Positions 8,548 to 63,434 of a stretch of DNA of 63,673 nucleotides are shown one piece after another. The notes under the pieces are model-generated. The model was not told the origin of the DNA, made no database searches, and was given only the letters and a program-made list of their open reading frames with translations. Position numbers and translations under genes: made by a program. The stretch is from IMG/VR virus record IMGVR_UViG_3300045970_000154, positions 1 through 63,673 of that record. One strand, written 5' to 3'. Source of the DNA: a virus (lineage: Duplodnaviria; Caudoviricetes). Numbering within the stretch: the stretch's first letter is position 1; every line of letters starts with the position of its first letter.

Positions 8548-8725
8548 GCTTGGTGATGCTCCTTGAAAGTAAGAGTGAAAGAAATTGGTAAGATTGCTGA
8601 AAGGTGTTTCGTTCTCCTCCTTGGTGCGACATGTCGCACTTGATAATTTTCCAGTAGACTAGCTACCGGTCTACCAGCGGCTTCTGTATAACTTGCGTTA
8701 AGTATACAGATGTGAATATTTAACA

Positions 8726-8929
8726 TTACGCTACATTTATTGCCCAAACATTTTCTTTGTTGATGTATGCGTCACTGATTGCATACAGCACAGCAGTTCC
8801 GCTCTTGTCCCGAATCGGTGTCTTCTCGAAATCCGGTTCAAACATTCTGAATGTGTCGCCCTTCTTGAGATACTCAAAGTCGCACATTACCCACTCTGTT
8901 CCCTTTAATACTTCAACATGTCGATTCAT
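8726..8929 (-). CDS. hypothetical phage protein
   Basis: 67 aa directly downstream of a consensus promoter. Confidence 0.6.
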   Translation of the reverse strand: MNRHVEVLKGTEWVMCDFEYLKKGDTFRMFEPDFEKTPIRDKSGTAVLYAISDAYINKENVWAINVA

Positions 8930-8945
8930 TTATCACCTAAAACCC

Positions 8946-8974
8946 ATTATACCACAGAAACTAGATACTGTCAA
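8946..8974 (-). promoter_or_regulatory. sigma70-type promoter TTGACA-17-TATAAT
   Basis: Perfect consensus; TCACATCTGCATA box upstream of -35. Confidence 0.85.
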
Positions 8975-8996
8975 GTAAATAGTTATGCAGATGTGA

Positions 8997-9968
8997 TTAT
9001 TTCTGAAACGGATAAAGCCACTGATTTATCTTGTCGGCCAGTCCGACCTTACCATCGCGGAACATTAGCTCCTCGATTTCATTTACGTCTACCCTGCCCT
9101 TCGACTCAAAGTCTTGGATAACCTGATCCAGGTACTGCACTCCGTCTTCTCCGATGATCTCTACGTAACCTTCTCGGTCGTGATTGAGGTTGACCAGTTT
9201 GAAATTGAACCAAATCTGGTTGAAGTCTCTCTTGAGTTCTTCGTGGGCGTTTTTAGTAAGCCTGGGAACCTCCAGGTCCTCTACCTGCGCCTCGATGTCA
9301 GCTAACTCGCCGTACTTAACAACCAACTTGAGGGCTGTCTTCTCGCCCAACCCACCAGGAGACTTGATGCTATCTGATGTGTCTCCTGAGAGTGATTTTA
9401 CGTGCGCATAAAGGTAAGGTTCAATCTCCCATATGTCTTTGAACTGCTTGTAGTTCATCCATACTTTGCTAGGTATTCTGTCTGCACTTAATCCCGCTGC
9501 CATTGCCTTGTTGTACCCCGACTGCACAACTCCAGGACGCAGGAGCTGGTGCAGGTCGGAGTCTGTCGAAAGTAGGCAGACGTTCCACTGTTCTAGGTCA
9601 ATATTGTTTATGACGTAGGCAATGCAATCGTCTGCCTCGGTTCCGTCTACCTTAACTACCTCGATCCCGAACAGGTGAGCCGCGTCTATGATGCAGCTCA
9701 CCTCTACCATAAACTTCGCGTAGTCTTTCTTCTCCCCCTCATTCTGGTTAGCCTTACGGGTTCTGCGGTCAATCTTGTAGTCAGGATACATTCCAAATCT
9801 AAACCTGCTTCCTCCCTTTCCCTCCGTAACCATCACTATCTTGTCTATGTTGAACTGCTCTGCCATTGCCCGTAGGTCACCATAGAATCTCCAGAACTTG
9901 TCACGCTCTTTGGTATGGTGTAGGTAGTATACGGTGTTCAGTGTATCTACTAACAGTATGCGCTTAAT
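8997..9968 (-). CDS. 5'-3' exonuclease / flap endonuclease (T5 D15-like)
   Basis: EADDCIA, STDSDLHQL and GDTSDSIKSPGGLGEKTA (H3TH) motifs. The N-terminal ILLVD motif lies upstream of the first ATG, so the start is placed at ATT 9968. Confidence 0.85.
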   Translation of the reverse strand: MKRILLVDTLNTVYYLHHTKERDKFWRFYGDLRAMAEQFNIDKIVMVTEGKGGSRFRFGMYPDYKIDRRTRKANQNEGEKKDYAKFMVEVSCIIDAAHLFGIEVVKVDGTEADDCIAYVINNIDLEQWNVCLLSTDSDLHQLLRPGVVQSGYNKAMAAGLSADRIPSKVWMNYKQFKDIWEIEPYLYAHVKSLSGDTSDSIKSPGGLGEKTALKLVVKYGELADIEAQVEDLEVPRLTKNAHEELKRDFNQIWFNFKLVNLNHDREGYVEIIGEDGVQYLDQVIQDFESKGRVDVNEIEELMFRDGKVGLADKINQWLYPFQK

Positions 9969-9978
9969 GGTTGGTCTC

Positions 9979-11546: not shown

Positions 11547-11577
11547 GGTTTCTCCTTATTTAGTGCGACCTGTCGCA

Positions 11578-11853
11578 CTAGGTAGCAAGCAGTTCTCTCA
11601 TCCTAAAAAAGCCCCGTAGTTCAGGGTAGTATGTTTCGATCAGTCTTACGTACCTGCTTCGGTAGTTGTTGTTCAACTTAAACTTGCTCCCGTCTGACTC
11701 TATGTTGATATGCCAGCGTATCCTTTCAAATATGCCATTGATGGAGTAGTGCGGGTAGCCGCTAGACTTTGCTTCCAGTGCATACTTAATGATGAGTCTG
11801 TAGATGGTAGGGTTATTTCGGTGATACTCGTCAAAGGACTCTTGGATATTCAA
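11578..11853 (-). CDS. conserved phage hypothetical protein
   Basis: ERIRWH...FKLNNNYRSRYVR motif typical of a widespread phage family. Confidence 0.6.
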   Translation of the reverse strand: MNIQESFDEYHRNNPTIYRLIIKYALEAKSSGYPHYSINGIFERIRWHINIESDGSKFKLNNNYRSRYVRLIETYYPELRGFFRMRELLAT

Positions 11854-19081: not shown

Positions 19082-19552
19082 TTAGGGATATTTGCTCCTA
19101 GCTTCAGCCATTTGCGACTTGGTTCTCCTGGTACGCTTCTTCTTTTCCTCAACGACAACCGGTGCGACATGTCGCACCTTCTTTTTCTTCTTGGCTGCTA
19201 GAGCTTTTGCCTTACGTGCTTTCTCTTTCAGCTTGTCTTCTTTTGCCTTTTCCTTCGCCTCTTTCTTCTGCCTTCGTTCGTTTGCAGCATCATCTTTCAC
19301 CTTCTTTGCTGCATCTATGATGGCCTGTGCTTCAGCTTTGATCTGCCTCTTCTCTCGGTTGATTATGGCAAGGGGTACGTGGTAGATAGGTTGACCGTAC
19401 TTAGTGATGTATTGCTCTTGGATGAGTTCTTCTTTGATCTTGTCGAAGCTGTTTAGGTAGGCTTGGCAGCGCACCTTAGTGTGAGTTGGGCATACATAAA
19501 GGCACACCAGTATATTCTTACGGCAGTCATCTATTGGGCAGTTAAGTAACAC
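19082..19552 (-). CDS. Cys-rich N-terminus, Lys-rich C-terminus protein (possible DNA-binding)
   Basis: Cys cluster and poly-K/R tail; contains an in-frame palindrome (VRHVAP). Confidence 0.6.
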   Translation of the reverse strand: MLLNCPIDDCRKNILVCLYVCPTHTKVRCQAYLNSFDKIKEELIQEQYITKYGQPIYHVPLAIINREKRQIKAEAQAIIDAAKKVKDDAANERRQKKEAKEKAKEDKLKEKARKAKALAAKKKKKVRHVAPVVVEEKKKRTRRTKSQMAEARSKYP

Positions 19553-26228: not shown

Positions 26229-26560
26229 AGAAAGGGCGAGGTTTCCCTCGCCCTAGTAGCTTACTGGTTAGCGCATCGACTCCAGCCCTTGTAGCCCATG
26301 CAGTCGCTGAACGCACCCTGCTCTTCAAACGGATTGTATACGTCACCGAATTGGGCCATCTGTCTCGCCCGAAGGCTGCAATCAAACTTGTCCTTGCTGA
26401 AGTCTTGTGACACAGCCCCAGGCTTGCACAATCTCGTGGGGGCGCATCCTGCCAGAGCAGAAGCAACAATCAAAACACAAAGTATCCTTTTCATGTGGTT
26501 CTCCTTTAGGTAGGTGCGACATGTCGCACCAAGTAGAAAGGGCGAGGTTTCCCTCGCCCT
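26229..26560 (-). terminator. two identical terminator hairpins (26229-26254 and 26535-26560) flanking a lipoprotein gene
   Basis: AGGGCGAGGGAAACCTCGCCCT followed by TTCT occurs twice. Confidence 0.7.
26261..26494 (-). CDS. small lipoprotein
   Basis: Signal peptide with LAGC lipobox. Confidence 0.75.
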   Translation of the reverse strand: MKRILCVLIVASALAGCAPTRLCKPGAVSQDFSKDKFDCSLRARQMAQFGDVYNPFEEQGAFSDCMGYKGWSRCANQ

Positions 26561-30514: not shown

Positions 30515-30867
30515 TTTCCGCCTTTCTCAGCTCAGCATAGTTCACTTCGATGAGACGCTCGACAATGTTGGACTTGTTCTTGTTGCTGCGCTTGGCGGTT
30601 ATGTAGTTAAGTTTCTCGATGACTTTTTCGTCAAGGGTGAAGGAACACAGTCGTTTCACTTTAGGCTCCTGGTGCGACATGTCGCACTACGTTCTCATTC
30701 GTCAATCTCTTCGCCTTCCCAGATGATCTTCTTGCCACAGTGGTAGCAGTACTTGAAGTTTCTAGCCACAGCGTGACAACAGTTAGGGCAGTGCCAGAAT
30801 CTACACCACCACTCATCCATATCTGAAGAATCTTCCTTGGTGTTGATTACCACTTGTCGCTTAGTGG

Positions 30868-34285: not shown

Positions 34286-34633
34286 GACTGCCTCCTACTG
34301 GTGGGTACAATCCGTTAGCACTTCACCAAACTTAGCCTCTCCTGTCCAGAATACTAATTCTGCGGAGGAGCAGGAAGTTATCAAAGCTTCCTCTTCTGCT
34401 CTTCTGCCAAGACATTCCAAGTTCCTCATGATCTCTTCCGGGTTGGTTCCGTTGAGGTCTACTCCCACGGTAAGGGTGTAGGTAAACATCTTCGTAGCCA
34501 GACACTTGCACTCAGCAGCCGGAGCTGCTCCTTCGACGGGGTGACCACAGATGGGACAGCCAATTCCTTTACACTCTGCACACATAGCATTCTCCTTTTG
34601 GTTAGGGTTGTGGTGCGACATGTCGCACCTGGA

Positions 34634-37052: not shown

Positions 37053-37871
37053 CTATTCATCTTGTAGTATCAGCATCGCCGCATTGACAAAGCCCTTCAA
37101 GTATTGTCCGTCACATGTAGAGCTGTCAGAAGACAAGTCCAGCAGCCTTTTAAGCACCTTCTGCTTTAATGGCAGACCCTTACCCTCTTTCTTTTTAATA
37201 ATCGTTCCTGGGGCATCCTCAGGCTCCTGAGTAGCCAGTACAACAGGTTCCGACGCTACTTCTACAGGTGGTGCGACATGTCGCACTGAACAAGCAGGGC
37301 AGAGCCACTTCTTACTGCCTTCTTTCCTTCGAGTAGCATTGGAATCTGCCGGTATGAAGGACTGCGCACGGCTTATCATGTCGTTCTCGCCAAGTGACAA
37401 CCGCTGGAAACCTTTTACGACACTTTCACACGCCTCTCCTGAGCAGGGAACCTCTCTCTCTATGTAGTAGCCTCGACCGTCTTGCTTGACCGGGAAGCCG
37501 CTCCATTCGGTGACCTGAACTTTACCTATTCTGGATTCTCTGGCACGCTCGATGAGGTGTTTCATCTGCACGCCGAACTCTTCCATTGTCAGATCGGAGC
37601 TTTCAGCGATGAACAGTTTCTTGAAGAAGTTGTACCGCCGAGTAGCGTCAGCAATCTCTTCGTGCTGAACGTCGCGGTACGTGTCGCCTACTAAACGGTA
37701 GGCCAGTAGTTTAGTCACTCCCTGGCCTGCCGTAAGCAGCACGTCTTGGATGTCGTCAGCGTTGACATCCGGTGGAACATCGAACATATACATGTTGCCT
37801 TGCTGGTCAATCAGTTTTCTTCCTAGATAACGTGGCATTTCTGTACCCTCCCATAGATTGAGTTGGTTCAT
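37053..37871 (-). CDS. hypothetical protein with Zn-ribbon cysteines
   Basis: 272 aa, C..C and WLCPAC; in-frame palindrome (VRHVAP). Confidence 0.65.
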   Translation of the reverse strand: MNQLNLWEGTEMPRYLGRKLIDQQGNMYMFDVPPDVNADDIQDVLLTAGQGVTKLLAYRLVGDTYRDVQHEEIADATRRYNFFKKLFIAESSDLTMEEFGVQMKHLIERARESRIGKVQVTEWSGFPVKQDGRGYYIEREVPCSGEACESVVKGFQRLSLGENDMISRAQSFIPADSNATRRKEGSKKWLCPACSVRHVAPPVEVASEPVVLATQEPEDAPGTIIKKKEGKGLPLKQKVLKRLLDLSSDSSTCDGQYLKGFVNAAMLILQDE

Positions 37872-40347: not shown

Positions 40348-40529
40348 GACTATCTCCCTAGTCGTCGTCAAGTAGCTCTTCCATGCCACACTCTGTGCAT
40401 ACGAGAGTCACCGTAGTTTCGTTTGCCCGAGAGTTGTAGTCACGATTTTCTGTTATCTCAGTACACCCGCACCGGTTACAGGTTAAGCTGAAGTGTGTCA
40501 TGGCACCCTCCTAGTGCGACATGTCGCAC

Positions 40530-42274: not shown

Positions 42275-42301
42275 ACAGCCTCCTAGTGCGACATGTCGCA
42301 C

Positions 42302-43721: not shown

Positions 43722-43748
43722 GGTGCGGCAGTATTGCCGCACCGGTTG

Positions 43749-44129: not shown

Positions 44130-44257
44130 TTGTACTTCCTCCGTAGTGTGCTGCGTTGTGGTGCGACAAGTCGCACCGGTTAGGATGTAGAAACCCTCGT
44201 AATAACTAGGTACACTGAGCCACATTCGTGATACCACCTCCTCTTAGTTGGTTAGGA

Positions 44258-45702: not shown

Positions 45703-45773
45703 GATTTCTCCTTTATAGGTGGAGCGGTGCGACATGTCGCACCGCTCGTTAGCGTAGCAGGTTGGGTTGATGG

Positions 45774-47993: not shown

Positions 47994-48064
47994 TTGTTAT
48001 CTCCCTTTTGGTTGTTGGTGCGACATGTCGCACTGGTTAAGTAAGCAGTTGTGAGTAGTTGAAG

Positions 48065-49731: not shown

Positions 49732-49760
49732 TATAGCCTCCTTGGTGCGACATGTCGCAC

Positions 49761-50421: not shown

Positions 50422-53022
50422 ACTAGCCCCCGATAACGTAGGTGTAGTGTTCCAATGACAAAGAGTAGGCGGTAACGGCTAAGGTAGCCAGGATGAAGCC
50501 TACCATTATGTTGACCAGGAGTTTAGAGTTGAGGTCGTAATCGTGATTTTCAACCTTCTTGAATGGCATGGCTACATCCCCCAGATGTTGTGAACCTCAA
50601 GAGAAGTGAACGACGCACCTTCCTTGCTGTGGCAGTTATACACATAGAACTCGATGTTGCCGCTTTCCGATTCCTCGGGGCAGAAGTCGAGTATAGCCGC
50701 AGGACAGTGAGCGATTCTGGTTTTCATGGTGGACAGTTTTCTTATGAACATGGATTCCCCTTTATTGGTTGAGCCATCCCTCTCGGAGCATCTGAGGGCT
50801 TGGCCAGCTCTCTTTTGTGTTGAACATCTGGTCTTGTATGTCGGTAGGGAACTCAGTAAACATACCCTGATACTCCCAGACCTCGACTTCATCTTCTCCT
50901 ACTCGGCATAAGCACTTGTGTGAGACTGCGTACACTTTTTCATCAGTTCCAGGTATTCCTACTACTAATATTAGATGTTTCATTTTCCTGCCTCCTCGGT
51001 GCGACATGTCGCACTACAAGTTGAAGGTATGAGCTATGTTAGACCAAAAGCTGTGGCCTTGTGGGGGCATCATCCCAGATGAAACAACTGCTTAAATTAG
51101 AATTAGGTTCAAATTGTGGGAGATGCGGTGCTTCGTACCTCAAGTACCTTCCCGCAGATGGCAGTATCTCTTCCACCTTATTACACAGAGTTTCATATCC
51201 TCGTGGAAATTTCATAACTACTCCCTGATCGCTACATCGAAGTATCTGCCGCACAACAAGCACACCACATCTTCTTCTATGCTTGTAGGGGAGTGGGCAT
51301 TCTCTGTCGTGACTCCGTTCTCGATGGAGGTGTACGTCAAGATGCGCTGCTGTATCGCTATAGTTCCTTCGCAATCCGGGCACTTGTCTGTTGTCATTTT
51401 TCTTCCTCCTAGTTGGGTATCTAAGGCTCCACCTTCTCCAGCTTAGCTAGATAGGCTTTTCCTTTAGCGGTGATGGTAGCTTCGTAGTGGTATCTTCCTT
51501 CCGCCAGCCCTCGGTGCATAAGCGCATGAATAGCGTTTGCCATACCGACAGGATAGTCAGCCTGAGTTACTCCTTCGGACAAAGCCAGAAGTCTCATTAT
51601 TAGTCGCGGGTCCATGTTGCCTCCTATGTGGCTCCAGATTACTTGCGTCGGCCTAGCACTTCGCACCGAACCCTGAGGGCTTGCTGGTTTGAGGTGCGAC
51701 ATGTCGCACCTATTTGTCGTTGCCTTTCGGCTAGAACTTTTTCATGGCATTCTCCTTGATCTCTTTACATTTGCAGGATGGGCAGGGCTTCTGGCAGTTG
51801 CAAGCGTTCAAAAACAGTTCGTAAGCGGTAACACCGTTAGTCTCACCTATTGGGGTATAGATTCTCGGTATCATCACTTCTTCGCTTTGCAACAGGTGCA
51901 ACGCTTCTCGGTCTTGTCCTTGCGGTCAATGACGTTGAAGACGCGCATGTTCTTGCCATAGAGTGAGTCTTGTCCTGGGTTGGCACAGGTACACGGCATG
52001 ATTACGGGTTCGGCCATTTCGCTCTCCTTTCAGATGCGGCGACGGATAACGTCGCCGGTTCGTGACGCCTTCTTCGGGTCAGAGATGGGGTTGGTTGAGA
52101 TGACCAGACGGGGCTTGTCTGCGTTGGCTAGTCCTTTGGTCAGGAAGGATATGCCTTGCCCAGATAAAGTGACGTGTTCGTGACAGCCCCAGATCATCAT
52201 TCCGTAGCTCCTTGTGGTTAGTTATGCAGTTATGAATATTTCCGTTTGCAGAAGATACTCAAGGGCATCCATAGCGTCATTGATTCCGCCGATCCTGCCG
52301 TCGCACTCGATCACTTCGCCGTAGTTTTCGAGGAGAAGTGCAGAAGCTCGGTCTGCCTTGGTAGCGTTGATGTCGTTCTTGTACTCCAAAAGAACATTTT
52401 CCAGCAGCTCGATTACTTTCTTCCGTTTCATTTGATCTCCCTTGGTTGGTGCGACATGTCGCACTTACTGCTTCTTTCCCACGAGTGCTTCCAGGTCGTT
52501 GAGAATCTCGTTCACCAAGAAGTTGACGTTAGCGTCGTTTGTGAAGGCCAGGATGGTTGCTACTTTGCTTGCTACTGAATCGAGGCTTGCCATGTTGATC
52601 TCCTTTGTTGCGACATGCCGCAGTTGTTATATGGAACGCAACACCACAAAATCGTTACCGGTGATTTCCTTCAGGGTTTCTGCCACAGTTTTTTTACCTG
52701 CTGCCCGTTTCGCCGCAATCATTTCGTCGTACATAGGGATAAACTTCTCAGCGGTACTGGCATACCTGCTGTAGGGAATCTCCTCACGCTTTCTGACCAC
52801 AAGGAGGCATTTGTCCCTAGCCACTATGAGTTCGTCCAAGTTAAACCACTTTTTAGCGTAATACGGTGACTCGATCATAGGTTCTCCTTAGTTGTTCCAG
52901 CAATCTATCGAAGACCCGACCCTATGCGAACAGGAAAGGGGGATAACCTGTATACACCAGACCGGATATTCGATACATTTCTGGAATAACTTGAGGGGGC
53001 TTGCGCCCCCTCGTTGTTGAGG

Positions 53023-53814: not shown

Positions 53815-53958
53815 TTGAAACTCCTTTTACCTGCTCACCCTATGGGGCGAGTCGAGGCGGGTTGGTTGATTGTGGGAGGGACGGGTTGAAGTGGCCGAAG
53901 ATACTAGAATGGGAGCAATCACCGCCTTTCGATGTAGTAGCTGGTGCGACATGTCGCA

Positions 53959-54252
53959 CTAAGCGAACAGATGAACTATCCAGCCGATGCCAAGGGCTAC
54001 GGCAGGGGTAAAGACGGCATTGTTGGCGGCTCTCCCTACAAGCTCAGCCGTAATGTCTTTGTTGTCAGATTCTTTGTGCGTTAAGAAGGACACCACAAGC
54101 ATTACGCCGATGGCTCCATTCAGGGACAAGATTGGGGCGTTGAATGAGTAGGCTATGAACCAGCCCCACAATTTACTCAGCACGAACCCTGCCCACGCTA
54201 GCCTGCCTACCGCCAGACACAGCACCGTAACAACCATATACGTGTATCTCAT
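53959..54252 (-). CDS. membrane protein (about 3 TM)
   Basis: Hydrophobic segments, LWGWFI motif; bracketed by two palindromes. Confidence 0.65.
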   Translation of the reverse strand: MRYTYMVVTVLCLAVGRLAWAGFVLSKLWGWFIAYSFNAPILSLNGAIGVMLVVSFLTHKESDNKDITAELVGRAANNAVFTPAVALGIGWIVHLFA

Positions 54253-54324
54253 TTCCTCCTCCGTGGTGCGACATGTCGCACTATCTGGTTAGTTATTTAT
54301 AATATTCACTACTGCATATTTATG

Positions 54325-54395
54325 TTGACAGATTCAGGAATCCGTGGTAAAATAGAACCTGTTCTGCCGGAAAAAACCTAAAGGGGGATTATGCC
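54325..54395 (+). promoter_or_regulatory. antisense-oriented sigma70 promoter, copy 2
   Basis: TTGACA-17-TAAAAT, preceded by a TCACTACTGCATA box; duplicate of 39309-39378. Confidence 0.7.
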
Positions 54396-54400
54396 TGTTC

Positions 54401-55612: not shown

Positions 55613-56040
55613 GTTGCTCTCCTTTCTAGTTAGTGATTGGTGCGACATGTCGCACCGGCTACAGAGAAACCACGAAGTCTCCCTGATCGAACACAAGGTC
55701 AACGGTAAGGATTTCTTCGTTACAGTCGTAGTGCTCGTTGTACTTCACAGCCTCAAGCAGCCCATTCTCCTCTGACTCCTCGATTAAGGCGGATAGCTTG
55801 TTCATAAGATCGTTTACTGTCACTCGGCACTCTCCTTTCTTGGTTACACGGCTAAGACCACAATGTCCTTTCCGGCTCGTGTGCTAGACTCGACGTAGGC
55901 ACCGGAATTAGGAAAAGTGTCTATAACAGTAACTACGTCAACGTCTTCCGTATCGAAGAACGTGTCGAGTGTCGCATCATAAACGGCGACCTTCATCTTA
56001 GGGTCGAGTTTTTTGAGTTTAGCTATAAGCTCTTTTACTG

Positions 56041-56493
56041 TCACGCCACACTCTCCTTCGGTGCGACATGTCGCACCTGCTCTTGGCGGCTGAAGTTGCC
56101 ACAGATATTATCGAAGGCATCAATTCCAGCCTCAACATCGAACTCTTCTGCGTAGCTTTCCAGTAATAGACAGGTTCCTATTCCGTATGACCCAAGTTCG
56201 GAGCAATGCACACAGAAGGCACAGCATTCAGGACGTGATCGGTCTCTGGGCGCAAAGCACAACTTACCTTCACTGTTGCGAAGAGCAAATCCGGTAGGTT
56301 TCGGGTTCCTAGGAGGAAATACATCTTCCGAGTAGTAGCTGACGAACTCCAGTTCTTCTTCCACACAGCCCCACTCTTCTGCCAGAAGGACGATAGCTTC
56401 CTGTGCTGCTTCCTTCCAATTCTCAGCCTGCACAGGGATACTTCTGGTGCGCTTGAAGTTGATGTGGAAGATCATAGTAGCTTCGGCACTCAT
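56041..56493 (-). CDS. hypothetical protein with Cys cluster
   Basis: CCAFCVHC...GTC...C; palindrome+RBS cassette upstream. Confidence 0.6.
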   Translation of the reverse strand: MSAEATMIFHINFKRTRSIPVQAENWKEAAQEAIVLLAEEWGCVEEELEFVSYYSEDVFPPRNPKPTGFALRNSEGKLCFAPRDRSRPECCAFCVHCSELGSYGIGTCLLLESYAEEFDVEAGIDAFDNICGNFSRQEQVRHVAPKESVA

Positions 56494-56528
56494 GCTGCGC
56501 TCTCCTTCGGTGCGACATGTCGCACCAG

Positions 56529-56861: not shown

Positions 56862-57442
56862 GCTGCACTCTCCTTTGGTGCGACATGTCGCACCATCCGT
56901 TTGACAATCAAGGCGATGGTTTCGAGGCTCACGCCCCGAGTCAATAACCAGCAGGTACGGAAGGTTGCTACTTTGGTATTAGAAACTTCTCGTGCGCTCA
57001 TGTCCGTGCCTCCTTTTGGCAGTCCTCACAGACTGTCTTGTTGGTCGTGGTGAACCATTTGTCGCAACAGCAGCATTGTCTGCGGTAGCGTTTCATACCT
57101 GCTCCGGGTGATTCTTGTGCCAGTGAGCGTCTGCTGCTTCGATAGACACTCCCATTTCGGCGGCGAACAACATCCAGTCGATGTACATAACGTCTTCCAT
57201 AATTAACCCCCTTAGGTTGGATGCTCTAAGAGCGCAAAGGCTATCTTGTAGGCTTTACGCTCTTGCAGTTCCCAATCTGATTAGTCACCGAACACGCTCA
57301 TAACGTGTCCAGCATCGCCACCTTTTGAGTATGGCTTAGGTCGTGTGTTGGTGGGCGGTTATCGCCGTATGTGTTGAGGTGGATTCAAACGTCCTCCATT
57401 GGTGCGACATGTCGCACTAAGTAGACAGATGTGAATTATAAT

Positions 57443-57760
57443 TGCCCAGCACGACAGCCTAGCGGGAACCAGAAGGGCAATAGACCAGCCCCTATGAACC
57501 GTGACCCTAGGATTTTATCGAGCTTTAATATCTGACACATGATCTCTGACGCAAAGAGAGTTGATACTTGAGGTCTGAACTCTGACCTCTGAACTCTGAA
57601 CTTTAACGGGAAGGTCGAGGCATTTTAGGCACCAGCTTCAAAGGGTCTATGCCCTCCACCGATGCCTACCTCACCTGTTCGTTATTGTCTTTCGCGCATG
57701 AGTCCCGGATAACCCTCCGGGAAGGGGAGTCTAGTTCTCCAGTTTTCATCGTGCTGGGCA
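57443..57760 (-). ncRNA. putative ~320-nt structured ncRNA with heptamer repeats
   Basis: 12-bp terminal inverted repeat TGCCCAGCACGA/TCGTGCTGGGCA, internal hairpins, AGTTCAG repeats, no ORF. Confidence 0.6.
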
Positions 57761-58002
57761 GCACCGTTAGTGCGACATGTCGCAGTAGTGAGCGATAATA
57801 CCCTCAGCTACATGTCTCTGCATGTCTCCTGTGATCTCGTGACCGGTATCAGAGATGAATATCCAGTACTGCTTGAACAGATCCAAGGTAATGTAGCCGA
57901 CCTCTCGTCCATTTAGTCGCGCAGCCCTTTCAGCGTACTTCTCTCTATAAGCAGGCTGAAAGGTTACGTAGTTCTTACCCACATCGTACCGGCTGTTAGC
58001 CA

Positions 58003-58620
58003 TTAGATCTCAACCTCCGTTATGGCATTAGAGGTGGACAGGGCGAGGTCTACATTCGCCTCGAACACATCAATCTCCTCCTCCATGCTGATGATGAACT
58101 CTCTCATCTTGAGCGGGTCGAGAAGAGTGTACTCGTTGTTGGCCAGGAAGCCCTTGCTGAAGGCAGCGTCACCCTCAACGTCAGCCTTGCCGTCCTTGCC
58201 GCGAGAGGCCAGGAGCTGCTGGTCGAGCCTCTGTTTGACTTCGAGGTTCCCCCGATCAACCTGCATGGTAGCCTTGGCGTAGGCACTCTTTGCAGCCTTG
58301 AGGGTCTCTTTCTGGTACTCGATGGAGGATTTCCTCTCGATAGCCTCCGCGACGGTCATTTTGACACCGCCAACTTCAACGGTCGTGGTGGCGTTGCTCA
58401 CCACGATAGCTGATTTGGCAGTCATGCGGTTGGCGATCAGGGCCTTGAGGGAGTCAACGCTGGCCAGAGCGGTCCTGTTGAACTCTTCCGCCGAGTTGAA
58501 ACCGGTAGGGAAACTCGACCCGATCTTTACGCCGCAGAACGTGGCATCCTGCGTGGCAGATTTGATACGCTTGTCGAGCAACTTGAGGTCGTTGAGGAGT
58601 GCTGCAATGGATTTCTTCAT
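58003..58620 (-). CDS. coiled-coil protein, distant DIP1984/DUF6847-like
   Basis: SNATTTVEVGGVKMTVAEAIERK and C-terminal SNAITEVEI resemble that family (from memory, not searched). Confidence 0.6.
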   Translation of the reverse strand: MKKSIAALLNDLKLLDKRIKSATQDATFCGVKIGSSFPTGFNSAEEFNRTALASVDSLKALIANRMTAKSAIVVSNATTTVEVGGVKMTVAEAIERKSSIEYQKETLKAAKSAYAKATMQVDRGNLEVKQRLDQQLLASRGKDGKADVEGDAAFSKGFLANNEYTLLDPLKMREFIISMEEEIDVFEANVDLALSTSNAITEVEI

Positions 58621-58692
58621 CGGTTAATCTCCTTGAGTTTTGAGGGTTGATGTTGGCGGCGGTTAGTGCGACATGTCGCAATACTGTGAAAT

Positions 58693-58780
58693 TGGCAGAG
58701 AGTAGAGGATTCGAACCTCTGTGAACCTTGCGGTTGTCGGTTTTGGAGACCGATGCTATCGACCACTAAGCGAACTCCCT
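58693..58780 (-). tRNA. tRNA with CCA (Trp) anticodon and long variable arm
   Basis: AGGGAGT/ACTCTCT acceptor, TCGGT-CTCCAAA-ACCGA anticodon arm, AGAGG-TTCGAAT-CCTCT T arm, encoded GCCA end, 88 nt. Confidence 0.85.
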
Positions 58781-58786
58781 GTAAAT

Positions 58787-58861
58787 TGGCGTCTGTCCTA
58801 GGAAGTTTCATCCTAGATTTCCCTTCGGGGGTTGGGCGTTCTGGTTTAAACTACACAGACG
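58787..58861 (-). ncRNA. aberrant tRNA-like element ending in CCA
   Basis: CGTCTGT/ACAGACG stem followed by CCA; D-like and T-like hairpins without TTCG. Confidence 0.45.
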
Positions 58862-58872
58862 TAACTGGGTAA

Positions 58873-59154
58873 TTAGAAGTAGTGCCGCTGGGCGTCGCTC
58901 AACAGCGTCGGTCCGGGATTGTACGGGAGAACTGAGTCAATCCCGCAAGCGGGGCATATTGCGGTTGCTCCCATATCCTCATAGGTGATGATCTCAGAGG
59001 GAAGGAAGACCCTCAAACAGTGGTAGCAGGTACACTCTTTGGCCTCCATAACCTTCTGATGATTCTTGAAGGAATGCTGAGACATATTTGCTATGTCGGG
59101 AGTAGTCGGTGGTGGGTTGCCCCAAACACGTTGCATAATGCTTCCGAGTGTCAT
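58873..59154 (-). CDS. Zn-ribbon hypothetical protein
   Basis: CTCYHC...TAICPACGIDSVLP, a conserved family motif. Confidence 0.7.
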   Translation of the reverse strand: MTLGSIMQRVWGNPPPTTPDIANMSQHSFKNHQKVMEAKECTCYHCLRVFLPSEIITYEDMGATAICPACGIDSVLPYNPGPTLLSDAQRHYF

Positions 59155-59206
59155 GGCCTATCTCCTTATCTTGAGTTAGTGCGACATGTCGCAATGATTA
59201 GTTATC

Positions 59207-59280
59207 CATCCGTAGTCAGGCTCGAACTGACATTTCCCGCTGGGAGGCAAGGCGACCGATTCCCGTTAGTCGATACGGAC
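59207..59280 (-). tRNA. degenerate tRNA-Gly(CCC)-like element
   Basis: GTCCGTA/TACGGAT acceptor, GTCAG-TTCGAGC-CTGAC T arm, 6-nt anticodon loop CTCCCA, no encoded CCA. Confidence 0.5.
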
Positions 59281-59342
59281 ATGGGTTGTGGCTCTACTTT
59301 AAATGGCGAGACATACATCTCAGCGTCGCCGCTTTTAACCAT

Positions 59343-60100
59343 CCTGGCCTAGCACTTCGCACCAGACAATTCCCGACTAGTCGGGAAATTGCTTCGTAGT
59401 TGACCGATGTTAAGGACACCGGACGAACCTTTACTATATGTGACTCCTTGCCGTTCCTGTACGTGCGTTCCCACTAAAGAGAAATGTCGCACCTCATTGC
59501 TACTAGGCAGGTTGTCAGAGCTTGCGCTCTAATGTCAGGTGTTACCTGACTCGTTGGCTATCGCCGGTAGTGGGACTGTTAGGGCAACCCACTACTATAT
59601 TCACAGATTTCATCATCTATACCGCGCTGCGTTGAAAGCGTAGCACTTATTTTTAGCTACGTAGTTTGACGTAGCATTCCAAAAAGAGCATGACGTAGGT
59701 CTCTTTTCAACTCCCCCGCTGTTAAGCCCCGGAGCAAGACAAAGGCGGAAAGATTATCCTTCAGGCGGTGGTCAGGCGGCTTTGTAGGCCGACAACCATT
59801 CGACTGTCATAGCTTGCGCTATGAGGATTGGGTACCAAGTAATACCCTTCCGTGTCTAAGGTCGCACATTAATTAGTGTGCTAGTCTGTTTGGTTATGGT
59901 GTGATGTATCACCATGCCTAATCGTTCGGGACTTACGCGAAGATGCCTCACGGCAATGTCGCTTTGCCCTATCTAAGGAACCGCTTAAGTCGGCGGTTAA
60001 ACCAAAGACCTTTTGGCTATTCAGTTGAGAAAGACCATGTTCCTAGTGGCGCGGCAAGTCTCCAGTAGTGACCCCGAAAGGTTCTGTTGACGTTCGTTGT
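59343..60100 (-). ncRNA. putative large structured ncRNA (~700 nt)
   Basis: ORF-free, own promoter, boxA-like GTCTTTCTCAACTGAATA, many hairpins including GNRA loops, upstream of tRNAs. Confidence 0.55.
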
Positions 60101-60106
60101 GAGATA

Positions 60107-60135
60107 ACTATACAGAAGCGACTAACTACAGTCAA
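60107..60135 (-). promoter_or_regulatory. sigma70-type promoter TTGACT-17-TATAGT
   Basis: Points into the ncRNA/tRNA cluster. Confidence 0.75.
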
Positions 60136-61632
60136 GCAATTTATTTAGGGTACACCGTTTTTTATTTCGACCTCCTGTTTGGTGCGACATATGTCGCACC
60201 GGCAAGCTCTACATTAGTTACCCCGGCCTAGCAAGTTCGCACCGGACATTTGCGTCCGGGACGCAAATGCTTCGTGGCTTACCTGCTTGACGGAGCAGGC
60301 ACCGGTAGATAATGGTTTAGGCGGGAGTAACGAGAGCCGGTGCGAGACCAGCAGCGGCTTTCTGGACGATAATTTCCAAGCACCGGGAGATAACGTCTTC
60401 GGAGGTGATAAGCCCCTCTTCAAACTCCAGTTCCGCCTCTTCCATCCGGTTGAACATTTCCTGGAACAGGCTGATCTTCTTTTTATAATCTTCGTTGCTC
60501 ATTTCAGTCTCCTTGGTTTGCGTCCGGGACGCAAAGAGTTACTTGATGATTTTGCCCTTGACGATCACATCGTTCGGGAACTGCCCCACTTCGCATCCTG
60601 CGGCCCAGAGGATCTGACCGATCTTTCCGCGTTTCGTTTCCTTGGCCCAATCTCTCATCGAAGGTTTCATCGCTTGCTCCTTTTGGTGCGACGTGTCGCA
60701 CCTGTGATCTGATACTCCTTAGACCAGCACTGCCCGACCTGAGACGCACCTTTAGTGCAACCAGCAGCAGCGCGACAGGTAGTGCAGAGTTCCGCAACTG
60801 CGGAAGCATAAGATTGCGGGAACGAAGACAACTTTGGTGGATTGAATTTCACCGTAGCCGGTAAGTGTCTGCTCTTCGCAACGTCGAACGTGTTATCGTG
60901 AAACGCAGTTGAAACACTCATGTCAGTCTCCTTGGTTTGCGTCCGGGACGCAAAGCTTGTACCGTTTAGCGTAGCGTTTCCACTTCAGTTCCTTCGCGCC
61001 AACCCCAGACAACTCAATAACGCACTTGGCGAGGTCAAGCTGGATGGACTCCACGAGAGCCGACAGTCGCTCGATCTCTTCGGTCAGGTTTTTCCTTTCA
61101 GTTTCGCAAATCCACATACGGTAATCAAACAGCTCTTTCGGTGTCGCTCTCTGGTACTTGCCTCGTCCTTCGTAGCTGCGAACTTCGCTCATCTCATCTC
61201 CTTTGCGTCCGGGACGCAAACCGTGTTGTTGTCGTTGGTGCGACATTTGTCGCACCTACAGGATATCCCGAAGCTCGAACGAGTAGGTGTCAGTCACGGC
61301 GGACGTAGACATACCGGTGAGGCAACTCATCTCGATGATGGCGTCGTCCAGGTCGATGCACTCTCCCCTAAGCACTTCCTTGTCAGTAGCTTTACCGCGA
61401 ACAATTACATACATCATACCTACCCCTTTCGTGTCCTCCACATTAATTGCTCCGGCCTAGGATTTCGCACCGGACGTTGCACAAGCGCAACGCTTCGTGG
61501 TTTGAGCGGGATGGTTAATCCCGCTATTTGTACCCATCACCAAGGACAGGCACCGTCACATTATAAACATAGGCAGCTCCTTTAGGGTAGAGGCTTGAGG
61601 TGCGACATGTGTCGCACCTCTCAATCAGTGGG

Positions 61633-62184
61633 CTAGGCAGCGGCAACCGTAGCCTGGGCACGCAGGGCGATCTCCGCCTGAACCTGATGCAGCAGGGCGG
61701 TCAGTTCGGCGTCGGTCAGGGACGAGAGGGACTTCGTCTCAGAAGCGGCTTTCTGGAGTTCATTAGCGGCCTCAGCAGCAGCCTTTTCAGCAGCTTTTTT
61801 GGCAACTTCGGCGGCTTTTTCGGCGGCTTTTTCGGCACCCGTCAGCTCAACCGGCTTCGGTTTTTCGATCATGAGTCCGGTGACAGGGTCGGCAACACAG
61901 TTGCGCTCGAACATCTTGGAGAGCGAGCGGTGAGCGGCCCACGCGTCGGGATTCCCTTTGAGGGAATCGACGGAGAAAGCCAGCCGGAAGCGGTCTTTGG
62001 CGAAGTTGAGGAAGTCGACGTGCTTGACTTCATCTTCTTTGGCCATTGCGATGAACAGTGCGTTGCCGTTGGCGATCTTGCCGTGAGCGACGGACAGACC
62101 TTTGGCCAGCTTGCCGTACTCATCGACCCGAAGAGCGTTGATGGTAGTAGCGACGGACAGGACGATCTCGATTTTAACGGACAT
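61633..62184 (-). CDS. early protein with Ala/Lys/Glu-rich helical C-terminus
   Basis: AAGGAG RBS before MSVKIEIV; first substantial gene after the terminal promoters. Confidence 0.7.
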   Translation of the reverse strand: MSVKIEIVLSVATTINALRVDEYGKLAKGLSVAHGKIANGNALFIAMAKEDEVKHVDFLNFAKDRFRLAFSVDSLKGNPDAWAAHRSLSKMFERNCVADPVTGLMIEKPKPVELTGAEKAAEKAAEVAKKAAEKAAAEAANELQKAASETKSLSSLTDAELTALLHQVQAEIALRAQATVAAA

Positions 62185-62320
62185 GACATTCTCCTTTTTG
62201 GTGCGACTTGTGTCGCACTTGGTTGATGTTGCGTGAACTTGATTTGCGTCCCGGACGCAAAGGATAACCTCACTTGATGCGTCCCGGTTGCGGTGACTTG
62301 CCTCTCTTGACCGTGAATAC

Positions 62321-62929
62321 ATTATAACACAACTGGATTCTTAGTCAAGCATTACTTTTTAAGCAGTTGTGATTAGTTTAGCAGTAAAAAAATTCAGCGA
62401 ACTTCTCATAATTCTCTTCCGTCATACAGCCAGACTGGTACAGCTCAAAAATGTTGTAGCGGATAGCCTGCTTTCCCTCTTTAGTTTCGCCGTTGTAGTA
62501 CCCTTGAAAAGACGCCGTGATACTCATCTCATCCCCCTTTGCGTCCGGGACGCAAACCGTTGCGACAAGTGTCGCACCGTCCAGCGTCCCTGTTAGTTGC
62601 CTCTCTCCAGCGTGAAAACATTATACCATAAGTAGATTTTTAGTCAAGCTATTTCTTTTATCATTCCAAGCACTTACTTTGCGTCCGGGACGCAAATGCT
62701 GACGCATTTGGCGACCAAGGTACGCAAACCACATTTTTTTCCTTTTCGACACCTTGCACATTCTTTTCCTATCAACGCTTGCGCGATATAGTGGTTATCC
62801 TTTAATCATCCTACTGAATACTGAAAAGCTTTTACTTTGCGTCCGGGACGCAAATGGTTCTGGGCAGTTACTCGTTGCGTGATACTCTCCATCGTGAAGA
62901 CATTATACCACAACTGGATTCTTAGTCAA
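62321..62929 (-). promoter_or_regulatory. three tandem early promoters TTGACT-16-TATAAT (62321-62348, 62620-62647, 62902-62929)
   Basis: Shared module CTTGACTAARAATCYAsTT.TG.TATAATGT.TTCACG at 280-300 bp spacing. Confidence 0.8.
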
Positions 62930-62995
62930 GTTTTATTATCTATCCTATAGCGGATAGTTAAACATTTTATTTTGGTATGCAAAGCGGCCTTTCTT

Positions 62996-63106
62996 TTTCG
63001 GTGACAGTTTCGGTGAACCATCAAAGACATTTTCGGTGAACCATCAAAGACATTTTCGGTGACGGATTCGGTGAACCATCAAAGACATTTTCGGTGACGG
63101 ATTCGG
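62996..63106. repeat. iteron-like tandem repeat with TTCGGTGA core
   Basis: Six TTCGGTGA cores, three followed by ACCATCAAAGACATT, spaced 11-12 or 23 bp. Confidence 0.85.
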
Positions 63107-63434
63107 CTTGTCCCGAATTCTCGCCTTTTCTTATTCCTAGTCAATTTCTACATACCTTTGCGTCCGGGACGCAAACCATACGCGAATAATCCGTACAGTG
63201 CGACAAATGTCGCAACATATTCCTTAAAAGACACTTATAATACTCCAAGCAAGTCACTTGTAACACAGTCAACGGGTGTTGACTGTTTTACATCTTTACT
63301 GTTCTACAAGTAAATTGGTTGCGCTCTTTAAAATGTGTATCATACACGCGTAGAGAATTATGAAAAATGTCTATTATGCGCGCGCGCCTTATGATGGCTG
63401 GTATAGTTATGTTTTGCGTCCAGGACGCAAATAA

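What the first reader, a model, noticed from the sequence alone, without database searches (positions are those of the whole stretch)
8624..63215. About 34 copies of a 16-bp palindrome placed before ribosome-binding sites, denser toward the genome end
Seen: GTGCGACATGTCGCAC occurs 7 times in the first 40 kb and about 27 times in the last 24 kb. On the coding strand most copies lie 0-15 nt 5' of an AGGAG-type RBS. A few are in frame inside genes (VRHVAP at 19162, 37271, 56061), so the sequence is kept even at a protein cost. Flanks sometimes extend the symmetry (26 bp at 45722). Known: ParB-family proteins bind 16-bp palindromes (parS), mycobacteriophage stoperators are multi-copy repressor sites, and T4-type PeSL stem-loop cassettes promote modular shuffling. 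Inference: a genome-wide binding site (candidates are the ParB-like 19572-20417 or MarR 26566-26937 proteins), an mRNA processing/stabilising hairpin, or a recombination handle.
Basis: partly seen in the sequence, partly recalled or inferred. Interest (0 to 1): 0.8.

Follow-up and report, generated by a model that had tools for sequence, protein, structure and literature searches.

The report
Phage-specific palindrome tagging early gene starts
An uncultured phage of about 100 kb carries some 36 copies of one 16-base palindrome, mostly wedged between a stop codon and the next gene's ribosome-binding site in its early operon, and its distant relatives carry different palindromes in the same position, so this looks like a lineage-specific control tag whose reader is still unknown.

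Summary
GTGCGACATGTCGCAC occurs 21 times exactly (0 expected). A looser pattern for the arms gives 36 copies: 29 of 16 nt, 6 with a 4-nt centre, and 1 with a 6-nt centre and a compensated arm. Eight lie in the first 40 kb and 28 in the last 24 kb.

All called genes are on the minus strand. 19 of 36 copies are followed within 15 nt by an SD-like site and a start codon.

The window ends in a tandem repeat that also begins record G001. G001 holds the structural genes, an integrase and 3 more copies, so the "genome end" is a divergent control region.

Relatives with 42-50% identical PolA lack this motif. Each has its own 12-16-bp palindrome before ribosome-binding sites.

The ParB-like and MarR-like candidates are not supported.

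Best reading (0.42): a sequence-specific stem-loop in early transcripts, acting in mRNA processing, mRNA stability or translational control. Close rival (0.35): a stoperator-like DNA operator. No RNA data were available.

The closest known cases are the Cluster O 17-bp dyad repeats and Cluster K ESAS/SAS of mycobacteriophages, both of unknown function. Notes from this scan (e1-3484076) describe a similar feature on other phage DNA.

The parts
3063..3078 (-). A16 copy, 1 centre mismatch, deep inside gene 1830-3410
8624..8639 (-). A16 exact, intergenic, SD-like site 2 nt after but no start found
11563..11578 (-). A16, 1 centre mismatch, 16 nt before DNA ligase start
19162..19177 (-). A16 exact, in frame (VRHVAP) in gene 19082-19552
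26514..26529 (-). A16 exact, after MarR-like gene's terminator hairpin, 19 nt before next start
30672..30687 (-). A16 exact, 12 nt before start of RHH-like gene 30501-30659
34613..34628 (-). A16 exact, 27 nt before start
37271..37286 (-). A16 exact, in frame (VRHVAP) in gene 37053-37871
40514..40529 (-). A16 exact, stop codon abuts, 12 nt before start
42286..42301 (-). A16 exact, stop abuts, 11 nt before start
43723..43742 (-). A-like hairpin GTGCGGC-N6-GCCGCAC (compensated arm), hairpin 1 of composite element
44161..44176 (-). A16, 1 centre mismatch, SD 18 nt after
45727..45742 (-). A16 exact, centre of 26-bp palindrome 45722-45747, 24 nt before start
48018..48033 (-). A16 exact, 24 nt before start of 739-aa gene
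49745..49760 (-). A16 exact, stop abuts, 13 nt before start
50999..51014 (-). A16 exact, 15 nt before start
51694..51709 (-). A16 exact, stop abuts; hairpin 1 of composite element
52449..52464 (-). A16 exact, stop abuts, 17 nt before start
52608..52623 (-). A16 variant, 3 mismatches; the internal change gives a G.U pair in the sense RNA
53944..53959 (-). A16 exact, overlaps stop of 53959-54252, 129 nt before next start
54266..54281 (-). A16 exact, at the start-proximal end of a 148-nt gap, 13 nt before start
55640..55655 (-). A16 exact, 27 nt before start of CCA-adding enzyme gene
56061..56076 (-). A16 exact, in frame (VRHVAP) at 3' end of 56041-56493, 16 nt before next start
56510..56525 (-). 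A16 exact, 16 nt before start
56878..56893 (-). A16 exact, in frame (VRHVAP) at 3' end of 56858-57001, 16 nt before next start
57402..57417 (-). A16 exact, in a 566-nt region with no called gene
57770..57785 (-). A16, end mismatch, at 3' end of gene 57767-58003
58666..58681 (-). A16, end mismatch (T1), 11 nt after the 3' end of tRNA-Trp 58693-58780
59179..59194 (-). A16, end mismatch (T1), 11 nt after the 3' end of tRNA-like 59206-59281, 24 nt before start
60182..60199 (-). A18 (4-nt centre), just after a composite element
60686..60701 (-). A16, 1 centre mismatch, 15 nt before start
61238..61255 (-). A18, stop abuts, followed by a B palindrome and then the RBS
61600..61617 (-). A18
62201..62218 (-). 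A18 in the 5' UTR from promoter 62348, 16 nt before start
62560..62577 (-). A18 with end mismatch in the 5' UTR from promoter 62647, followed by B and the RBS
63198..63215 (-). A18 with end mismatch, in the control region upstream of B 63158
60250..63430 (-). Span holding all 10 copies of a second palindrome B, TTGCGTCC-S-GGACGCAA (starts 60250, 60518, 60937, 61203, 62244, 62539, 62679, 62837, 63158, 63414); 4 lie directly before an RBS
62321..62348 (-). Early promoter TTGACT-16-TATAAT with TG; B and A18 in its leader
62620..62647 (-). Early promoter, near-identical copy
62902..62929 (-). Early promoter, near-identical copy; B at about +45
63436..63673 (.). 23-bp tandem array at the contig end, also found at the start of G001

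Best explanation
The palindrome is a cis-acting tag on the early transcripts of this phage. On the sense RNA it folds into a stem-loop of 6-7 bp (GUGCGA/UCGCAC around CAUG). It sits between the upstream stop codon and the downstream Shine-Dalgarno site, in 5' leaders 20-60 nt after the early promoters, and directly after the two tRNAs. I propose that a sequence-specific factor, probably phage-encoded, reads this stem-loop. It would punctuate the long early transcript (processing and/or capping of RNA ends against exonucleases) or set the translation of the tagged cistrons.

Shown: the copies, their placement, their co-orientation with genes, the arm conservation with variable centres, the predicted folding, and an equivalent layout in relatives.

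Inferred: that the RNA rather than the DNA is read, that a protein reads it, and the outcome (stability, processing or translational control).
For: (1) The arms stay the same while the centre varies. 28 copies in window plus G001 have the exact arms GTGCGAC/GTCGCAC with a 2-nt centre and 4 have a 4-nt centre. Two further 18-nt copies differ only at the end pair. The six 18-nt copies have six different centres. A stem-loop tolerates this; a dimer on duplex DNA normally does not.

(2) Only two copies change an internal arm position, and both keep pairing. Copy 43723 has A>G with T>C plus a 6-nt loop. Copy 52608 gives G.U in the sense RNA only.

(3) Four copies of a roughly 100-nt element share conserved linkers. 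Their two hairpin slots are filled by A16, the A-variant, B or unrelated hairpins. A closing helix covaries: CUAC/GUAG, CCAG/CUGG, CCAC/GUGG.

(4) The core folds at a median of -7.0 kcal/mol. In +-40 nt of context the stem pair forms with median probability 0.95; 31 of 39 copies exceed 0.5.

(5) No copy overlaps a -35 or -10 hexamer of the three strong early promoters. Copies lie downstream in the leaders.

(6) The flank follows gene direction. On G001, where genes are on the plus strand, all 3 copies carry the C on the plus-strand 3' side, and one is followed by AAGGAG-ATG.

(7) 20 of 39 copies lie <=30 nt upstream of a called start, against 6% of 20,000 random positions.

(8) Both tRNA genes are followed at exactly 11 nt by a copy.
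Against: 24 identical 16-mers (21 in the window, 3 in G001) is far more conservation than a stem needs.

The end pair is broken without compensation in 6 copies.

The relatives' palindromes are weak hairpins. Median core energy is -1.6 to -1.7 kcal/mol in G005, G007 and G009, and the median probability of forming in context is 0.06 and 0.00 in G007 and G009.

Spacing is rigid in the relatives and in B. Dyad symmetry 12-16 bp wide with conserved arms is the classic signature of a dimeric DNA-binding protein.

G000+G001 looks temperate (integrase), and temperate phages are where multi-site DNA operators are known.

The support from internal arm changes rests on two copies.

No RNA-binding or RNA-cutting protein could be tied to the motif.
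Confidence: 0.42

Rival explanations
1. The palindrome is a multi-site DNA operator. A phage-encoded dimeric DNA-binding protein binds the duplex 16-mer at the cistron boundaries of the early operon and blocks or slows transcription elongation. This would silence the early lytic genes in a lysogen, or shut them off later in infection. It would work like stoperators or other dispersed repressor sites.
For: Perfect dyad symmetry with conserved arms and a less conserved centre.

Five diverged relatives each have a different palindrome 12-16 bp wide in the same place, as expected if site and protein co-evolve.

Spacing is rigid in G005, G006, G007 and in palindrome B.

The relatives' hairpins are too weak to matter as RNA.

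G001 encodes a tyrosine integrase and an Xis-like HTH, and G005 also has an integrase.

Several small DNA-binding candidates exist: an RHH-like gene at 30501-30659 directly preceded by a copy (E 0.0018, below the Pfam cut-off); Ros/MucR+HTH at G001 418-1086; and the MarR-like protein.

The authors of the Cluster O paper predict a dimeric DNA-binding protein for their similar 17-bp repeats (PMC4351075, passages read).
Against: Six copies keep the arms but have a 4-nt centre, and one has a 6-nt centre with both arms changed in step.

No copy overlaps an early promoter.

No candidate protein follows the trait. The ParB-like gene is only in G000, and the MarR-like gene and the integrase are only in G000/G001 and G005. 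G007 is rated 100% complete, has 14 copies of its own palindrome and has none of the three.

One copy in G001 and one in G005 sit between the stop codon of the same structural-operon gene and its terminator, where a roadblock has no obvious use.
Confidence: 0.35
2. The palindrome is a recombination or mobility handle. It marks junctions at which small early gene cassettes are gained, lost or shuffled, or it is a small selfish hairpin repeat that spreads into intergenic gaps. It would have no regulatory role.
For: The copies flank small, fast-evolving early genes. None of the genes called between 34.3 and 53.9 kb has a homologue in G005-G007.

Copies within one genome are near-identical, as gene conversion or recent spread would give.

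Two Bryobacterales MAGs carry many copies of the same 16-mer inside a dispersed repeat of about 100 bp, which shows that such a core can ride on mobile repeats.
Against: The start-proximal and gene-oriented placement recurs in five diverged phages with different sequences. This argues for selection on position.

Many adjacent members of the large paralogue family at 35-50 kb abut one another without a copy.

No transposase of the kind that moves hairpin repeats was seen among the proteins I scanned. I scanned 46 of the 129 called window genes and 19 of the 46 called G001 genes.

The Cluster O authors saw few if any of their repeats at indel borders (PMC4351075).

I could not compare close relatives, so breakpoints remain untested.
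Confidence: 0.1
3. The palindrome is a binding site for a host factor, a host transcription factor or nuclease whose own sites carry the same motif.
Against: The Bryobacterales copies lie inside a longer repeat. The Armatimonadota/Chthonomonas hits share near-identical flanks and look like one conserved gene (read by eye). Most other hits are single copies in a genome. The motif resembles no operator consensus that I can recall.
Confidence: 0.05

Closest known systems
Cluster O mycobacteriophage 17-bp dyad repeats (TGTTCGGNNNCCGAACA; Corndog and relatives), PMC4351075, passages read
   Same: About 34 copies in a phage genome. The 7-bp inverted arms are invariant and the centre is variable. Copies are denser toward one end, within a long leftward non-structural operon. 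About a third lie in coding regions. The genome also holds a ParB-like domain protein. The function is unknown.
   Different: The authors state that the Cluster O repeats are not closely linked to translation starts. Here about half the copies abut an RBS. The centre is 3 bp there and 2 (or 4) bp here. The sequences and phage lineages are unrelated. Cluster O phages lack an integrase, whereas G001 has one.
Cluster K mycobacteriophage start-associated sequences with extended inverted repeats (SAS/ESAS), PMC3203893, passages read
   Same: The repeats are restricted to the non-structural half of the genome and lie immediately upstream of start codons. The ESAS are inverted repeats just upstream of the RBS-like SAS, and their consensus differs between subclusters, as the palindromes here differ between relatives. 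The function is unknown.
   Different: The SAS itself is asymmetric and contains the RBS. The ESAS arms are 17 bp, imperfect, and 4-13 bp apart, and the authors found little support for RNA pairing. Here there is one short perfect palindrome, the ordinary AGGAG follows it, and the few arm changes keep pairing.
Stoperators of Cluster A mycobacteriophages (L5 gp71 type); PMC9283540 abstract seen in the listing; description in PMC4351075
   Same: Dozens of identical short sites in short intergenic gaps across the transcribed genome of a temperate phage.
   Different: Stoperators are asymmetric, bound by a monomer, and work only in one orientation. One site overlaps the early promoter (recalled). 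Here the site is a palindrome and none overlaps a promoter.
T1/Stevie 22-bp repeats, PMC4319613, passage read
   Same: 16-20 dispersed intergenic repeats of unknown role in a phage.
   Different: They are asymmetric, 22 bp long, and the phage is lytic.
T7 early-region RNase III sites; T4 RegA/RegB control of early mRNAs; PeSL stem-loops of T4-like phages (all recalled from memory, not read here)
   Same: These are intercistronic RNA signals next to RBSs that set the processing, stability or translation of early messages, or that flank early gene cassettes.
   Different: None is a single identical 16-nt palindrome repeated dozens of times. RNase III sites are long irregular hairpins, and RegB cuts at GGAG itself.

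Membership tests
Cluster A stoperator system | Site is asymmetric and oriented with transcription | tested here: not met
   The 16-mer is a perfect palindrome. Only the 3' flanking C follows gene direction.
Cluster A stoperator system | A cognate immunity repressor is encoded, and one site overlaps the early lytic promoter | tested here: not met
   No copy overlaps the -35 or -10 of the three early promoters. No repressor was identified. The promoter-overlap criterion is recalled from memory.
Cluster A stoperator system | Protein binding stops transcription elongation | not testable with these tools
   Needs EMSA, ChIP and transcript mapping.
Cluster O-type dyad repeats | 30 or more copies of a short inverted repeat with invariant arms and a variable centre, spread over the genome and denser at one end | tested here: met
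   36 copies; 8 in the first 40 kb and 28 in the last 24 kb.
Cluster O-type dyad repeats | Sequence and phage lineage shared with Cluster O | tested here: not met
   The motif is different. The best cultured PolA relatives are at 28% identity and are Bacillus and Klebsiella phages.
Cluster K SAS/ESAS | Repeat lies within a few nt of the start codon and contains the RBS | tested here: not met
   The motif lies 11-27 nt before start codons, and the AGGAG lies outside it.
Cluster K SAS/ESAS | Inverted repeat directly upstream of the RBS, with a lineage-specific consensus | tested here: met
ParB/parS (or KorB-type) system | A ParB-family protein co-occurs with the palindromic sites | tested here: not met
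   DUF6551/ParB_N is found in G000 but not in G005-G008, which have the same layout. 5 of 80 loci around homologues have a palindrome family of >=4 copies, against 1 of 24 control loci.
ParB/parS (or KorB-type) system | ParB binds the site (CTP-dependent loading) | not testable with these tools
   Needs biochemistry.
REP/REPIN-type selfish hairpin repeats | A cognate RAYT/IS200-type transposase is present, and copies sit mainly after genes in either orientation | tested here: inconclusive
   No such transposase was found among the 46 of 129 window genes and 19 of 46 G001 genes I scanned. The rest were not scanned. Placement is start-proximal.
Intrinsic terminators | GC-rich stem followed by a U-run | tested here: not met
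   On the sense strand the motif is followed by C/T and then the RBS. The terminator scan hits that overlap copies are on the antisense strand.
Known RNA families (Rfam 15) | Match to a curated covariance model | tested here: not met
   Only the tRNA matched, at gathering score over the whole window and at E<=1 over 43000-63673.

The most novel reading that the evidence does not exclude
A whole family of uncultured phages of about 100 kb marks the starts of early cistrons with a short lineage-specific palindrome. A cognate phage factor that co-evolves with the palindrome reads it. This would form a post-transcriptional regulon (hairpin-tag punctuation or translational gating of early genes) comparable in scope to T4 RegA/RegB but built on a sequence-specific stem-loop. 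The same logic could explain the unexplained Cluster O and Cluster K repeats.
Probability: 0.3. Interest if true: 0.8.

Novelty: new variant of a known kind. Interest (0 to 1): 0.6.

Why it matters
Dispersed identical repeats at gene boundaries have been described in several phage groups (Cluster O, Cluster K, T1-like) without a known function.

This case adds three things:
- A lineage in which the layout is conserved while the sequence is replaced in each branch.
- Internal evidence in one member (variable centres, a compensated arm, interchangeable hairpin slots) that points to a stem-loop rather than a duplex site.
- A short list of testable readers.

It would also give a handle on how large temperate phages time their early genes.

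Tried and rejected
RNA evidence. No RNA holder was listed for 50800-60700. The two DNA runs, laid as contigs, showed only the same phage plus short pieces of a diverged variant and repeat-induced joints. They gave nothing on RNA ends or breakpoints.

The exact motif elsewhere. There are 10 stretches in IMG/VR, 3 of them in G001 and the rest in single-copy stretches. It gave single copies, one conserved gene in Armatimonadota (read by eye), and a roughly 100-bp repeat in two Bryobacterales MAGs. None of this gives a host or a function. Palindrome B has no exact match in IMG/VR.

Close relatives. A single-protein PolA search of IMG/VR found none. Megablast of 44000-52000 against cultured phages found none. 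PolA homologues at 61-64% identity exist (P0002-P0005), but their contigs could not be fetched, so positional conservation at short distance and breakpoints are untested.

ParB-like candidate: rejected.

MarR-like candidate for motif A: rejected.

Serine recombinase 33608-34285: only in G000 and G005; not pursued.

Isolated half-sites. GTGCGAC occurs 9 times on the sense strand and 0 times on the antisense strand outside the palindromes, with about 6 expected on both strands together. This may be codon bias and I did not use it.

Literature. Searches found no description of this phage family or motif. One search (PeSL) failed on a term that was too short and was not repeated, so PeSL is cited from memory. 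Supplementary files were not opened.

Earlier notes of this scan on this genome: none.

Full report
THE OBSERVATION

GTGCGACATGTCGCAC occurs 21 times exactly in the window, and none of 100 dinucleotide-preserving shuffles gave a single copy. There are 28 copies at up to 2 mismatches and 30 at up to 3.

The arms GTGCGAC/GTCGCAC also occur with a 4-nt centre at 60182, 61238, 61600 and 62201. A pattern that allows a 2-6 nt centre and end mismatches finds 36 copies:
- 29 of 16 nt
- 6 of 18 nt, all between 60182 and 63215
- 1 of 20 nt at 43723, in which both arms carry a matching change (GTGCGGC...GCCGCAC)

Eight copies lie in the first 40 kb and 28 in the last 23.7 kb.

GENOME CONTEXT

The window is a virus record rated 56% complete. 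A simple gene caller of my own put all 129 genes on the minus strand.

Coordinates 1-34 kb hold replication and nucleotide genes:
- PolA, ligase, SbcC-like, primase, DnaB-like, helicase, FEN-like exonuclease, ThyX
- RtcB, an RNA ligase, a PhoH-like protein

Coordinates 34-63 kb hold small genes, most without homologues in the relatives. This stretch also carries a CCA-adding enzyme gene and two tRNA genes.

The window ends inside a 23-bp tandem array. The same array starts record G001 at 100% identity. G001 has:
- the same G+C content (0.48)
- a roughly 96-bp repeat shared with the window
- 3 exact copies of the motif
- terminase, portal, major head and tail genes on the plus strand, a tyrosine integrase and an Xis-like HTH protein

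Window and G001 together are syntenic with the relatives G005-G007. I therefore read G001 as the continuation of the same genome. The "genome end" of the finding is then a divergent control region.

That region holds three near-identical strong promoters (TTGACT-16-TGnTATAAT at 62929, 62647 and 62348, minus strand), tandem repeats, and the start of the early leftward operon. Whether it is also a physical terminus cannot be told. G005 and G007 also break there.

PLACEMENT OF THE COPIES

On the coding strand the usual order is stop codon, motif, C or T, 0-25 nt, AGGAG, start codon.
- 19 of 36 copies have an SD-like site starting within 15 nt, followed by a start codon. 23 of 36 have this within 30 nt.
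- With my gene calls, 20 of 39 copies (window plus G001) lie <=30 nt upstream of a start, against 6.0% of 20,000 random positions.
- In several long gaps the motif sits at the start-proximal end, for example 54266 in a 148-nt gap.
- The three G001 copies carry the flanking C on the plus strand, where the genes are. One is followed by AAGGAG and ATG. The flank therefore follows gene direction.
- Both tRNA genes are followed at exactly 11 nt by a copy.
- One G001 copy lies between the stop codon of gene 17360-18421 and a terminator hairpin. In G005 that phage's own palindrome lies between the homologous gene and its terminator.

OTHER REPEATS IN THE SAME REGION

A second palindrome B, TTGCGTCC-S-GGACGCAA, has 10 copies, all between 60250 and 63430. 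Four lie directly before an RBS, and the others lie in the leaders of the early promoters.

Four loci (about 43645-43745, 51615-51715, 60195-60305 and 61430-61540, minus strand) share a composite element:
- Conserved linkers and a conserved 3' part, GGTGCGAA-N-CTAGGCCG.
- Two hairpin slots. Slot 1 holds A16, the compensated A variant, or unrelated hairpins. Slot 2 holds B or unrelated hairpins.
- A closing helix that covaries: CUAC/GUAG, CCAG/CUGG, CCAC/GUGG, with one mismatch in the fourth copy.

Rfam has no match for any of this.

RELATIVES

The exact motif is found elsewhere only as single copies, in one conserved gene of Armatimonadota, or inside a dispersed repeat of about 100 bp in two Bryobacterales MAGs.

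PolA homologues define a clade of phage contigs of up to about 112 kb. Five IMG/VR members with 42-50% identical PolA were searched for motif A (G005-G009) and then read in full. None has motif A at up to 3 mismatches.

Each has its own palindrome family above Markov shuffles, which reached at most 2-3 copies:

| Record | Palindrome | Exact-arm copies | Copies at looser match | <=30 nt upstream of a called start | Random positions |
|---|---|---|---|---|---|
| G005 (and G008) | AATTCA-N4-TGAATT | 10 (8 in G008) | 53 at <=2 mismatches | 22 of 53 | 5.6% |
| G007 | (YR)TTAGATATCTAA(YR), all between 93 and 112 kb | 10 | 14 at <=1 mismatch | 9 of 14 | 5.0% |
| G006 | AGCTAA-N4-TTAGCT | 6 | 14 at <=1 mismatch | 3 of 14 (gene calls poor there) | 6.5% |
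| G009 | TWGGTAATTACCTA | 4 | 16 at <=1 mismatch | 7 of 16 | 5.1% |

Placement figures are and motif contexts.

In G009 the commonest form is asymmetric (TTGG...CCTA). It occurs 7 times, always in that orientation on the coding strand, and never as its exact complement.

The layout is thus conserved and the sequence is lineage-specific.

RNA OR DNA?

For RNA, in this phage:
- The arms are invariant while the centre is 2, 4 or 6 nt, and the six 18-nt copies have six different centres.
- The only two internal arm changes keep pairing.
- A and B act as interchangeable hairpins in the composite element.
- The core is stable (median -7.0 kcal/mol) and is predicted to form in context.
- No copy overlaps an early promoter.

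For DNA:
- The 24 copies are identical over 16 nt.
- The end pair is broken without compensation in 6 copies.
- The relatives' palindromes are weak hairpins (median -1.6 to -1.7 kcal/mol in G005, G007 and G009, rarely formed in context in G007 and G009).
- Spacing in the relatives is rigid.
- The phage looks temperate.
- From memory, most dispersed phage palindromes with a known function are repressor sites.

I put the stem-loop reading slightly ahead (0.42 against 0.35), because it rests on what this sequence shows directly. Both readings need a sequence-specific reader.

WHO READS IT?

ParB-like protein (DUF6551). It is absent from G005-G008. 80 viral loci around its homologues show palindrome families no more often than controls: 5 of 80 against 1 of 24 with >=4 copies. 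Only +-10 kb around each homologue was examined.

MarR-like protein. It has its own promoter and terminator and occurs only in G000 and G005. Its putative recognition helix is nearly the same in both, although their palindromes differ. What the two phages do share is a box, CACAWCTGCWT. In G000 it lies 7-13 nt upstream of the -35 of promoters at 62371, 31478, 24203, 8995 and 1079. It resembles G005's palindrome, AATTCACATCTGAATT. I infer that the MarR-like protein reads that box, not motif A.

RHH-like 52-aa gene (30501-30659). Its Pfam RHH_1 match has E 0.0018, below the cut-off. It is directly preceded by a copy and is a new candidate, but unproven.

No candidate follows the trait across the family. 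G007 is rated complete and lacks the integrase, the MarR-like gene and the ParB-like gene.

COMPARISON WITH WHAT IS KNOWN

The nearest described cases are in mycobacteriophages.
- Cluster O phages have 34 copies of a 17-bp dyad repeat with invariant 7-bp arms. The copies are denser toward the right end, about a third lie in genes, a ParB-like protein is present, and the function is unknown. The authors stress that the repeats are not closely tied to translation starts (PMC4351075, passages).
- Cluster K phages have start-associated sequences, half of them extended by inverted repeats just upstream. The consensus is specific to each subcluster, the repeats are confined to the non-structural half of the genome, and the function is unknown. 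The authors saw little support for RNA pairing (PMC3203893, passages).
- Stoperators are asymmetric and oriented.
- T1 and Stevie have 16-20 asymmetric 22-bp repeats (PMC4319613).
- A T4 review notes a stable hairpin just upstream of an RBS, not sequestering it, in Aeromonas phage 25 (PMC2988022).

The present case combines the dyad symmetry of Cluster O with the start-proximal placement of Cluster K, in an unrelated uncultured lineage. Notes from this scan describe similar palindromes before RBSs in other phages (e1-3484076, e1-2300639; not checked here).

VERDICT

The feature is real, highly non-random and functional-looking. It is a new variant of a known but unexplained kind of phage repeat. 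The mechanism is open between an RNA stem-loop tag and a DNA operator.

Noticed in passing
window 43645-43745, 51615-51715, 60195-60305, 61430-61540 (minus strand): A four-copy structured element of about 100 nt in leaders. It has two hairpin slots filled by different hairpins (A, B or unrelated), conserved linkers, a conserved part GGTGCGAA-N-CTAGGCCG and a covarying closing helix. It has no Rfam match.
   Followed up: partly
window 63436-63673 and G001 (L019) 1-127; window about 63010-63133: A 23-bp tandem array of at least 10 units at the contig end, shared with the start of G001. Beside it are 3-4 repeats of about 23 bp (CACCGAAAATGTCTTTGATGGTT). These are iteron-like repeats in the divergent control region and might be an origin or a terminus.
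   Followed up: partly
window minus strand at 62371, 31478, 24203, 8995, 1079 (also 48053, 8714); G001 2036: A box CACAWCTGCWT lies 7-13 nt upstream of the -35 of TTGACA/TGnTATAAT promoters. In G001 it lies inside the promoter spacer. It resembles the G005 palindrome AATTCACATCTGAATT and is a likely site for the MarR-like regulator that only these two phages share.
   Followed up: partly
window 54297-54392, 39302-39375; G001 6495-6590: A repeat of about 96 bp (91-93% identical) carrying a strong promoter-like site (TTGACA-17-TAAAAT with TG) on the plus strand, antisense to the flanking minus-strand genes in the window and in G001.
   Followed up: no
window about 35200-50400: A large family of small paralogous proteins of about 65-100 aa (N-terminus like MKT..LT..EA.N...VGL, C-terminus W.V). 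I counted about 20-25 members by eye, many abutting each other. None has a homologue in G005-G007.
   Followed up: no
window 58693-58780 and 59206-59281: Two tRNA genes. The second is called by ARAGORN with an undefined anticodon and is not found by Rfam. Each is followed at 11 nt by a T-variant of the palindrome. The phage also encodes a CCA-adding enzyme, RtcB, an RNA ligase and a PhoH-like protein, which together look like a tRNA/RNA repair set.
   Followed up: partly
G001 (L019) 4328-5389 and 5749-6021, minus strand; 418-1086, plus strand: A tyrosine integrase and an Xis-like HTH_17 protein, plus a Ros/MucR zinc-finger + HTH protein as the first rightward gene. The phage is probably temperate. 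G005 also has an integrase; G006, G007 and G009 show none.
   Followed up: partly
loci L181, L185, L193 and others (two Bryobacterales MAGs): The same 16-mer is the centre of a dispersed repeat of about 100 bp that is present at least 20 times in one 8.5-Mb Bryobacterales chromosome and in many copies in a second MAG. This is probably an unrelated REP/MITE-like element. Several single-copy hits elsewhere use the 16-mer as the tip of terminator hairpins.
   Followed up: partly
window 53023-53229, 53318-53509, 53611-53814: Three paralogous small genes (63-68 aa), each preceded by a leader of about 90-140 nt with similar hairpins.
   Followed up: no
window 30501-30659: A 52-aa ribbon-helix-helix-like protein (RHH_1, E 0.0018, below the cut-off) with the palindrome 12 nt before its start codon.
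   Followed up: partly
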